From Eledone cirrhosa (lineage: Eukaryota), in contig OZ024753.1 in the NCBI GenBank assembly GCA_964016885.1, positions 43,338,001 through 43,402,000 on the forward strand: 64,000 nucleotides of DNA. The letters are read 5' to 3'. The first letter of the stretch is position 1, and every line of letters starts with the position of its first letter. Below are positions 8,260 through 63,806 of this stretch, one piece after another. Both the position numbers and the translations under genes were made by a program. A model generated the notes under the pieces. That model searched no databases, had not been told where the DNA came from, and saw only the letters and a list, made by a program, of their open reading frames with translations.

Positions 8260-8865
8260 ATTGTTTCTACTTTAGGCACAAGGCCAGCAATTACCCAGTG
8301 CATTACTGGTACTTTATTTTATCGAATCACAATAGTAATAATGTTTTCTTTATTAACCACAAGGGTTTACACAAAGTAGACATTAAGGACAGTACAGGAC
8401 GGTACAAATGGGCATTTCTGTGTGTAAAAAAACAGAAACAGAGGATGTAACAAAAAAAGAACAAATGAAAAATTCCCCAATAGAGGGAGGGAGGGGGGGG
8501 GAGTTCCGAGGGTCACTTGTGGAGAAAGCCCACAAAAAAGCCAGTTACCCTGACCACCAGGGTAAGTGCCCTCCCCCAATTTTATAATTGTTTCTACTTT
8601 AGGCACAAGACCAGCAATGGTACTTTATTTTATCGACTCTCGTAAGGATGAAAGGCAAAGTTAACCTCAGCGGGATTTGAACTCAGAACGTAAAGGGCCA
8701 TAACTCTATGCTGCAAAGCATGCTATCTGACACTCTACTGATTCTGCCGATTTAGGTACAAGGCCAGGAATTTGGGATGAGGGGAAAGTTGATTCAATCG
8801 ACCCCAGTACATTATTGGTACTTTATTTTATCGACCCCGTATATGGATGAAAGACAAAGTTAACT
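8260..8865 (-). mobile_element. Cluster of three SINE A fragments plus a probable LINE 3' end (about 8340-8580)
   Basis: Repeated ttgtttctactttaggcacaagg...ggtactttattttatcga...gatgaaaggcaaagttaacctc; intervening piece ends in aataaagaaaacattatta on minus strand. Confidence 0.7.
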
Positions 8866-34099: not shown

Positions 34100-34140
34100 C
34101 GCTGTACTAGTTTCAAGCTTATTATCTATCGTCAGCAACG
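34100..34140 (-). ncRNA. Minimal type I hammerhead ribozyme candidate
   Basis: cgttg-CTGACGA-tagataataagctt-GAAA-ctag-TA-cagcg; palindromic stem III ACTAGT, GUA site; stem II weak. Confidence 0.6.
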
Positions 34141-39099: not shown

Positions 39100-39223
39100 T
39101 TAAAAAGTTAAACAAGGTTCAATGAATAAATCAAAGAATGAGTTTTACAATAGATTGGAAGCACTCAACTACCATGACTGAATCTTAACCATCTACTATG
39201 TCAGGGTATGTCATGCATCATCT

Positions 39224-39290
39224 TATTTTATCTGATGAGGACGTACTGTTGAACTTAACTCAGTACCTCTGAAATATGTATAATAAAATA
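39224..39290 (+). ncRNA. Type I hammerhead ribozyme in a TA-embedded insert (about 39100-39335)
   Basis: tattttat-CTGATGA-ggacgtactg[12 nt]cagtacctct-GAAA-tatgta-TA-ataaaata; 8-bp stem I, 9 of 10 pairs in stem II, self-complementary stem III. Confidence 0.85.
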
Positions 39291-41750: not shown

Positions 41751-42057
41751 TTAAGGATACTATTTATGGTTATGCATATACAAAAACCTTTTGTAGTTAT
41801 ATATATTTTTACAAACCCTAAATAGTGATAGGCATTAATATAATTACTACCTTATTACCAGTAAGATAAATAGCTCAATGTAATAACATCAGTTGTTTTA
41901 CAGAGCAGTTATATATATATATATATATATATATATGCAGAGGTTATATTTAATTTGTTGGGATTCAACAAGTTTAAAAATTATACAGGAAGCTCCAACC
42001 GTTTGTTGTCTTTTTTCAGGGTATGTCAATAGTTATTTATAAAACGAATCTGTATTG

Positions 42058-42123
42058 TATTTTATCTGATGAAAGCACACCATAATTTGCCTTGGTGGCC
42101 CTTGAAATATGTATAATAAAATA
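42058..42123 (+). ncRNA. Type I hammerhead ribozyme in a TA-embedded insert (about 41937-42160)
   Basis: tattttat-CTGATGA-aagcacacca[10 nt]tggtggccctt-GAAA-tatgta-TA-ataaaata. Confidence 0.8.
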
Positions 42124-61750: not shown

Positions 61751-62181
61751 CTCATCGGTTAGACAACGAATAGAGCGAGAGAGAAGGGGGGGAGACTCAT
61801 TGGTTAGACAACGAATAGAGACAGAGAGAAAAGGGGAGACTCATTGGTTAGACAACGAATAGAGCGAGAGAGAGGGGGGAGGGGGAGACTCGTTGGTTAG
61901 ACAACGAATAGAGCAAGAGAGAGGGGGAGACTCATTGGTTAGACAACGAATAGAGCGAGAGAGAGGGGGAGGGGGAGACTCATTGGTTAGACAACGAATA
62001 GAGCGAGAGAGAGAGGGGGAGGGGGAGACTCATTGGTTAGACAACGAATAGAGAGAGAGAGGGGGGAGGGGGAGACTCATTGGTTAGACAACGAATAGAG
62101 CGAGAGAGAGGGGGGAGGGGGAGACTCATTGGTTAGACGAATAGAGAGAGAGAGAAAGACTCTCATCGGTTAGACAACCAA
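61751..62181. repeat. 38-50 bp minisatellite, 10 copies, CCAAT-containing
   Basis: ctcattggttagacaacgaatagagcgagagagagggggaga. Confidence 0.9.
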
Positions 62182-62352: not shown

Positions 62353-62399
<47 letters not shown>

Positions 62400-62443
62400 A
62401 AGTTAAATAAAAGTCAAATGATTAAAATTTAGCTTCGTTTATT

Positions 62444-62498
62444 ACTGCTATATATATTTCAGTGACAGCCATCTTTGGCTGTGACCTCTTCAGGCAGT
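62444..62498 (-). ncRNA. Type I hammerhead ribozyme in a TA-embedded insert (about 62394-62685)
   Basis: actgc-CTGAAGA-ggtcacagcca aaga tggctgtcact-GAAA-tatata-TA-gcagt-aataaa. Confidence 0.85.
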
Positions 62499-63806
62499 TT
62501 GAATTAGTATGGTATAGGCAAGTACATATGTTGTTTAGGTGTATGATATTGTCAATACTCTGATATGCCCAGTTCCTTGCTGGGTTGTTAATTCACTGGG
62601 GAACTGGAGTCATATGAATTCAAACAAACGAATTTTAGTGTCACAGGTCCCCTTCTCCTCTCATTGGTCAGTTATTAGTGTTGTCTATATATATATATAT
62701 ATAGAAATGCCAGTAGAAGGAAGATGTAGTAGAGCAAGACTAAGAAAGACATGGGCGGAGGTGGTGAGAGTGGACCTCAGATCGCTGAAGCTCACGGAGG
62801 AGATGACGAAGGACCGTGACAAGTGGAGAGATGCTGTGCTGAATAGGACCCGTCCCACCCTTGCAAGCAGGGAAAAGTGGATGTAAAATGATGATGATGA
62901 TATATACAGACAGAGAGAGAGAGAGAGAGAGAGGCCCATACCATCATAATCTACTTTCATATAACATTTTAAAACATCGTTTTACTTCTACTACCATAAT
63001 AATAATAATGATTTCTTATATAGGCACAAGGCCAGCAATTTTGGGTGAGGTGAAAAATCGATAAAATTGACCCCCAGTGCATTACTGGTGCTTTATTTTA
63101 TTAACCCTATAAGGATGATAGGCAAAGCTGACCTTGGCAATATTTGAACTCAGAATGTAAAAGGCCATAACTCTATGCCTCGAAGCAGGATATCTGACAC
63201 TCTGATAATGGTTTCTGGTTGAGGCACAACACCAGCAGTTTCGAGGGGAAGGGGACAGTTGATTATATCAACCCCAGTATTAAACTGGTACTTTATTTAT
63301 ATTAACTTTAGAAGGATGAAAGGCAAAGTTGACCTCAGCAGGATTTGAACTCAGAAGGTAAAGGGCCGTAACTAATGATCCTGGTAATCCACAGCAATAA
63401 TATACCAGCCAGCCATAGAACCTCTGTTGCCACTTCCATCCTGCCATCTATCTCAATCATGAGCCAGGACTTGGATTGTCACCAAGTCCTTACTGTACCA
63501 TTCTATGAGGTTTCCTCACCTAAATTGTTTCTTAACATAACAACCCATCTCACCCATGCAAGCATGGAAAAATGGACATTAATCGATGATGATGATACAC
63601 ACACACACATATCTTTCTATCTATCTATCTATCTTAATAAAGAAACATATCTATCTATCTATCTATCACACACACACACACACACACATATCCCAGGTTC
63701 AATCGGAGGTAACCACAGTAAGTAAGGTACTCAATACTTAGCAAAATATAAATATTTAATATAGAAATAGCTTCAACAGGACTAGAACCATATTACTTGG
63801 ACAGTC

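What the first reader, a model, noticed from the sequence alone, without database searches (positions are those of the whole stretch)
62394..62685. Third intact hammerhead reveals a conserved C-C mismatch at pair 4 of stem II
On the minus strand: actgc CTGAAGA ggtcacagcca-aaga-tggctgtcact GAAA tatataTA gcagt AATAAA. Stem I and stem II differ in sequence from the 39224 and 42058 copies. Yet all three have three pairs followed by C opposite C in stem II (GGA-C/C-TCT, AAG-C/C-CTT, GGT-C/C-ACT). All three also use an AU-rich palindromic stem III with an AUA site. Here stem III is itself a TA repeat, like the insertion target. Inference: a subfamily-specific structural feature, and possibly a link between ribozyme end and TA targeting.
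Basis: partly seen in the sequence, partly recalled or inferred. Interest (0 to 1): 0.72.

Follow-up and report, generated by a model that had tools for sequence, protein, structure and literature searches.

The report
Penelope hammerhead with fixed unpaired cytosine
This is the clipped end of a Penelope-type jumping gene whose self-cutting RNA motif, across a lineage of roughly 100,000 copies in this genome, keeps one cytosine unpaired while the base pairs around it change, which likely marks an untested contact site; the proposed link to TA-repeat targeting does not hold.

Summary
The motif is real and is the 3' end of a 5'-truncated Hydra-clade Penelope-like element in (TA)n (62394-62685, minus). 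The mismatch is genome-wide: 70,302 of 76,080 hits have C opposite C at stem II pair 4, across families whose endonucleases share 43-50% identity. But the invariant is the unpaired 5' cytosine (C10.4), not the C-C pair: a 20,031-hit family has C-U (98 of 100 listed), two small families have C-A, and C-G appears only as scattered variants (339). C10.4 shows 0 changes against 3-9 at other stem II positions on a 25-representative tree. Published Hydra hammerheads often have C10.4, but paired with G (15 of 25 families). The TA link is refuted: families with GC-containing stem III palindromes also sit in (TA)n, and copies almost never end at the cut site (170 of 70,302; 1 of 20,031). Best reading: a dimer-dependent hammerhead whose unpaired C is likely a docking site; cleavage is untested. 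This scan found the same feature before elsewhere in this genome (e1-8670794, e1-8671138).

The parts
62394..62685 (-). 5'-truncated, tail-less 3' fragment (3' UTR / pLTR) of a Hydra-clade Penelope-like element, here called family D
   Evidence: 88.6-91.8% identical over about 280 nt to six other D loci; collinear upstream sequence in other copies; D endonuclease lies upstream of the same hammerhead, same strand, in 11 of 14 loci
62444..62498 (-). Type I hammerhead motif, complete core, 5-bp stem I
62461..62486 (-). Stem II: 3 pairs, C/C, 7 pairs, AAGA loop
   Evidence: fold; covariation
62483..62483 (-). C10.4, the invariant unpaired cytosine
62464..62464 (-). C11.4, the opposite base; U or A in other families
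62450..62457 (-). Stem III palindrome ATATATAT, predicted dimer helix
62448..62449 (-). Predicted cleavage site after AUA (between 62449 and 62448)
   Evidence: hammerhead consensus position; cleavage not tested
62438..62443 (-). AATAAA, poly(A)-signal-like hexamer just after stem I
   Evidence: AATAAA or ATTAAA within 20 nt of the cut in 25 of 25 representatives
62358..62393 (.). (TA)n tract at the element's 3' end
62686..62703 (.). (TA)n tract at the element's 5' end
39224..39290 (+). Sibling hammerhead, family E (GGA-C/C-TCT)
42058..42123 (+). Sibling hammerhead, family C (AAG-C/C-CTT), partly decayed in distal stem II

Best explanation
The feature is the hammerhead at the 3' end of a TA-inserted Hydra-clade Penelope-like retroelement, predicted to cut only as a dimer, and its lineage keeps C10.4 unpaired, likely as a base-specific docking site that helps fold the active ribozyme. 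Shown: element identity, family-wide invariance of C10.4, variable non-G partner, covarying neighbours, covarying palindrome. Inferred: two motifs pair through the 8-nt palindrome, cut after AUA, and separate the upstream RNA from the AATAAA signal; the opened pair 4 sits at the height where canonical hammerheads begin loop 2 and would accept a base from the stem I side (the A-rich 3' flank is the candidate). This particular copy is a lone truncated fragment and is probably inert.
For: Hydra-clade motifs in the D protein: RWK, DKT, CxCX5C, CxxC and CxH (criteria). C10.4 present in about 72,705 of 76,080 hits; the first 100 listed exceptions are scattered variants of C-bearing families or chance matches, no amplified family. 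Fitch steps on a tree built without the proximal 7 pairs: 10.4 = 0, 11.4 = 2, other twelve stem II positions 3-9, mean 5.5. Kept across endonucleases only 43-50% identical (A/B, D, E, M). Closing the pair to C-G would gain about 6.4 kcal/mol, yet no amplified C-G family was seen in the listed rows. Central palindrome positions covary (ATATATAT, ATATGTAT, ATGATCAT, ATGCGCAT, ATGTGCAT), which a hairpin with no loop cannot explain; the monomer with a 2-bp stem III is 3.4 kcal/mol worse than open. Precedent: an internal loop in domain II is the docking site in CChMVd(-), and a stem I pyrimidine inserts opposite the first loop-2 C in the Schistosoma structure (PMC2632901). C10.4 is also common, but paired with G, in 15 of 25 published Hydra families.
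Against: No invariant partner nucleotide was found in the stem I flanks (best: 1.10 A 22 of 25, 1.8 A 20 of 25, 1.7 U 17 of 25). The known contact needs a 3' A in loop 2, absent here except in the two C-A families. Representatives were hand-picked single copies from searches that mostly required C10.4, and families are related, so the 0-change figure (Poisson P about 0.004) is indicative only. Avoidance of G at 11.4 rests on only two or three family-level changes. Monophyly of the lineage is weakly supported (72/77). Other families in this genome and 10 of 25 published Hydra families do without C10.4. No cleavage data.
Confidence: 0.5

Rival explanations
1. C10.4 is read by a protein (the element's reverse transcriptase-endonuclease or a host factor) that selects or folds the RNA; it need not affect cleavage in vitro.
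For: Base-specific invariance with no covarying RNA partner; PLE hammerheads cleave poorly in vitro and cofactors were proposed (PMC4209133).
Against: No binding data; related Hydra-type elements lack the unpaired C.
Confidence: 0.2
2. The mismatch is a brake or hinge that weakens stem II so that cleavage stays slow or conditional.
For: The partner may be C, U or A; pair 1 is also often non-canonical (G-U 8, U-U 5, A-C 1, A-A 1 of 25).
Against: Mere destabilisation would not fix the 5' base as C.
Confidence: 0.15
3. Inherited accident: one ancestral mismatch carried along without selection.
For: Copy counts are pseudo-replicated; position 10.3 changed only 3 times on the tree.
Against: Neighbouring pairs made repeated double changes over a protein divergence of 50% or more while 10.4 never changed.
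Confidence: 0.12
4. The TA-like stem III ends the cleaved RNA in (UA)n, which anneals to nicked (TA)n and so explains targeting.
For: 170 copies do run from the cut site into TA; 13 of 15 inspected do not resume the element after the run.
Against: That is 0.24% of 70,302. In ATGCGCAT and ATGWTCAT families only 1 and 1 copies do so, fewer than at a control position 8 nt downstream (4), so the 170 reflect TA microhomology. ATGCGCAT copies are TA-flanked in 11 of 11 rows, K-type copies in 21 of 23. Published TA-targeting Hydra families have non-TA palindromes. Normal ends lie a median 52 or 147 nt beyond the cut.
Confidence: 0.03

Closest known systems
Hydra-clade Penelope-like elements and their hammerheads (Craig et al. 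2021, PMC8557442; File S2, including Hydra-1_Obim)
   Same: RWK, DKT, CxCX5C, CxxC and CxH motifs; (TA)n insertion; 3' hammerhead with palindromic stem III; G-C or U-U at the base of stem II; inverted pairs with a one-sided tail.
   Different: None of the 25 listed families has an unpaired C inside an extended stem II; 15 have C10.4 paired with G. The tail here is about 90-150 nt rather than 30-40.
Minimal and small-helix-III hammerheads of metazoan PLEs (Cervera and De la Pena 2014, PMC4209133)
   Same: Type I, long helix II, short helix I, palindromic helix III, predicted dimer activity, many sequence-diverse families per genome.
   Different: Their consensus has an extra nucleotide after A9 and G10.1-C11.1 with a fully paired helix II; that register fails for families D, E and K here.
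CChMVd(-) and Schistosoma hammerhead tertiary contacts (Dufour et al., PMC2632901)
   Same: An opening in domain II near the fourth-fifth pair serves as docking site; a C at the start of loop 2 in Schistosoma.
   Different: Those use a larger loop with a 3' A pairing to a stem I U; here it is a 1x1 mismatch and no partner is identified.
Animal non-LTR retrozymes (PMC7229834; bioRxiv 10.64898/2026.07.22.740005)
   Same: Type I hammerhead, PLE-related.
   Different: This copy is not a tandem unit; its family has a coding parent.

Membership tests
Type I hammerhead ribozyme | Core CUGANGA, GAAA, NUH with three helices | tested here: met
   stem III only as a 2-bp monomer stem or 8-bp dimer helix
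Type I hammerhead ribozyme | Match to an Rfam hammerhead model | tested here: not met
   no hammerhead match at E up to 10 for 62380-62700
Type I hammerhead ribozyme | Self-cleavage | not testable with these tools
   needs an in vitro assay
PLE dimer-type hammerhead | Palindromic, unstable helix III | tested here: met
PLE minimal hammerhead consensus (Cervera 2014) | Extra nucleotide after A9 and conserved G10.1-C11.1 | tested here: not met
   pair 1 is G-U 8, A-U 6, U-U 5, G-C 4, A-C 1, A-A 1; consensus
Hydra clade of PLEs | RWK and DKT motifs in the RT N-terminus | tested here: met
   RWK in L350, L353, L356; DKT in L350, L356, L357 (family D)
Hydra clade of PLEs | C-terminal GIY-YIG endonuclease with CxCX5C linker, CxxC and CxH, no CCHH | tested here: met
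   read by eye; Pfam GIY-YIG hit only weak and on another family's endonuclease (E 0.0064, 1 of 6 proteins)
Hydra clade of PLEs | Insertion into (TA)n | tested here: met
Hydra clade of PLEs | Placement inside the clade in an RT tree with published members | not tested
   published proteins were seen only as supplement passages; the tree holds own-genome endonucleases only
Non-LTR retrozyme | Non-coding head-to-tail repeats with a hammerhead per unit | tested here: not met
   single copy between TA tracts; coding parent

The most novel reading that the evidence does not exclude
These retroelements use an undescribed hammerhead tertiary architecture: a single unpaired cytosine inside a long stem II replaces loop 2 as the docking site, giving a natural series of some 100,000 copies and over twenty families in which the partner base (C, U, A) tunes activity.
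Probability: 0.3. Interest if true: 0.65.

Novelty: new variant of a known kind. Interest (0 to 1): 0.4.

Why it matters
PLE hammerheads cleave weakly in vitro and their role is unsettled (PMC4209133, PMC8557442). A base that is invariant outside the catalytic core, with natural C, U and A partners, is a precise handle for asking whether these ribozymes use an unknown contact or cofactor. Removing the TA-priming idea also narrows how these elements target microsatellites: targeting does not come from the ribozyme end.

Tried and rejected
Rfam: whole-window scan swamped by microsatellite-driven miRNA matches (150 of 350 rows seen); local scan found no hammerhead. Alternative register with a bulged first base and a 1x2 loop fits families A/B but fails for D, E, K. 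The ORF in L041 was first taken as the D parent and rejected: it joins D sequence at an inversion junction and the real D endonuclease is another. Sequencing runs: no RNA holder listed; only contigs could be laid, uninformative on cleavage. A Watson-Crick partner for C10.4 near stem I was sought and not found. Cleavage site as a priming site rejected. Lunse et al. 2017 is not held. Literature searches that found no description of this mismatch.

Full report
Observation. The minus strand reads exactly as quoted. A structural scan of the window found four candidates with core, three proximal stem II pairs and at least four stem I pairs: the three named copies with perfect cores and one core-mismatched chance-like hit at 8744. 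Stem II of the target folds as 3 pairs, C62483/C62464, 7 pairs. The element runs 62394-62685 between TA tracts at 62358-62393 and 62686-62703 and is 88.6-91.8% identical to six other family D loci.

What it belongs to. The window lies in a 3.0-Gb animal genome. The pattern CTGANGA-N22-40-GAAATATRTATA has 76,080 hits against 116 for the control. DNA upstream of family D leads, about 1.3 kb from the hammerhead, to an endonuclease found on the same strand as a D hammerhead in 11 of 14 loci. The D protein has RWK, DKT, CxCX5C, CxxC and CxH and no CCHH, the features that Craig et al. give for the Hydra clade, almost all of which insert in (TA)n. The target is therefore a 5'-truncated 3' fragment. 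Ends fall in two classes, a median 52 nt (112 of 215 distinct ends) or 147 nt (90 of 215; 13 unclassified) after the cut site, and 39 of 50 inverted pairs have one of each; a one-sided tail is already described for PLEs. The target is of the short class.

The mismatch. C opposite C occurs in 70,302 of the 76,080 hits; 3,375 lack the 5' C, 339 have C-G and 2,071 C-A or C-U. The listed exceptions (first 100 of each) are scattered variants of the same families, except one family with C-A (160 hits, 88 of 100 listed A). Relaxing stem III revealed more: 8,250 C-C hits with other palindromes (control 25), a 20,031-hit family with ATGCGCAT and C-U in 98 of 100 listed, and a second C-A subfamily. Asking for no C at 10.4 with such palindromes gave 2,287 against 1,730 control and no amplified family among 100 listed. 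So about 100,000 copies share an unpaired C10.4, roughly three quarters with C opposite. In 24 hand-picked representatives pair 4 is never paired, pair 3 always (U-A 11, G-C 8, A-U 5) and pair 6 in 22. On a tree of 25 representatives built without the proximal seven pairs, 10.4 needs 0 changes, 11.4 needs 2, the other stem II positions 3-9 (two representatives of the failed, one a single-copy C-U variant and one ending at the cut site, were dropped). Copy counts are pseudo-replicated and the representatives came mostly from searches that required C10.4, so searches are the necessary controls. The lineage is old: endonucleases of A/B, D, E and M are 43-50% identical, though their grouping is weakly supported. 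Other hammerhead families in this genome (26,377 hits against 4,418) have paired stems, several with C10.4-G11.4, as do 15 of the 25 Hydra families in Craig's File S2; none of those 25 has the unpaired C (read by eye).

The TA link. Only 170 of 70,302 copies run from the cut site into TA; 2 of 15 inspected are slippage, 13 stop there. In families whose palindrome is not TA-like the count is 1 (ATGCGCAT) and 1 (ATGWTCAT), against 4 at a control position, yet these families are TA-flanked (11 of 11 rows; 21 of 23). Published TA-targeting Hydra families have unrelated palindromes. The TA-like stem III is one of several palindromes; targeting is better ascribed to the protein, as Craig et al. suggest for the linker.

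Mechanism. Inferred: the palindrome forms an 8-bp helix between two motifs (predicted -3.2 kcal/mol here, -10.5 for ATGCGCAT), as described for PLE hammerheads, and cleavage follows AUA, a natural but slower triplet (abstract). C10.4 lies where canonical hammerheads open loop 2 for their stem I-stem II contact; an internal-loop version exists in CChMVd(-). I put 0.5 on an RNA docking site, 0.2 on protein recognition, 0.15 on a brake or hinge, 0.12 on inertia, 0.03 on TA priming. No partner base was found and nothing here shows cleavage.

Novelty. Element class, dimer-type hammerhead, TA targeting and tails are known. I found no description of the fixed unpaired C in searches. What I saw: PMC4209133 parts 1-2 of 4 and passages of supplement file 2 (file 1 and figures not seen); PMC8557442 passages, section 11, supplement parts 1-2 and passages; PMC2632901 passages and section 25; PMC6765202, PMC3088659, PMC7229834, PMC7936874 passages; PMC1636495 abstract; bioRxiv 10.64898/2026.07.22.740005 part 1 of 5; Lunse et al. 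2017 not held, and its alignments may contain this variant. Hammerhead position numbering is recalled convention. Earlier notes of this scan report the same feature in this genome; one prompted attention to the 5' C, which I then tested. Verdict: real, new variant of a known kind, interest 0.4.

Noticed in passing
window 34135 downward, minus strand (about 34100-34140): A fourth, decayed hammerhead of another family (short paired stem II, AC..GT-type stem III); a better-preserved relative appears. It lacks the mismatch architecture.
   Followed up: partly
tails of long-end copies, e.g. L033, L042, L113, L193: A conserved ACTC...GAGTGCT hairpin-like motif starts a few nt after the short end in families with otherwise unrelated tails.
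   Followed up: partly
inverted pairs in G000 loci: 39 of 50 inverted pairs have one long and one short end; tails are about 90-150 nt, longer than the 30-40 nt reported.
   Followed up: partly
window 39200-39212, 42021-42033 (+) and about 62550-62565 (-): A shared TCAG(G/A)GTAT..GTCA/GACA-like motif lies 25-60 nt upstream of all three hammerheads and could pair with the tail's ACTC motif.
   Followed up: no
G000 families E, C, B2, F, M, N: AATAAA overlaps the cut site in 8 of 25 representatives, so cleavage would split the hexamer.
   Followed up: no
L054, L063: A different CTGAAGA...GAAATATATA family whose two fetched copies both stop at the putative cut site in TA; stems not established.
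   Followed up: no
window about 61800-62170: Tandem array of about 45-nt units with an embedded CT tract, next to SINE-like repeats.
   Followed up: no
L041:4560-4640: A Hydra-type ORF of another family is fused through a short inversion to family D 3' sequence, a likely template-switch chimera.
   Followed up: partly
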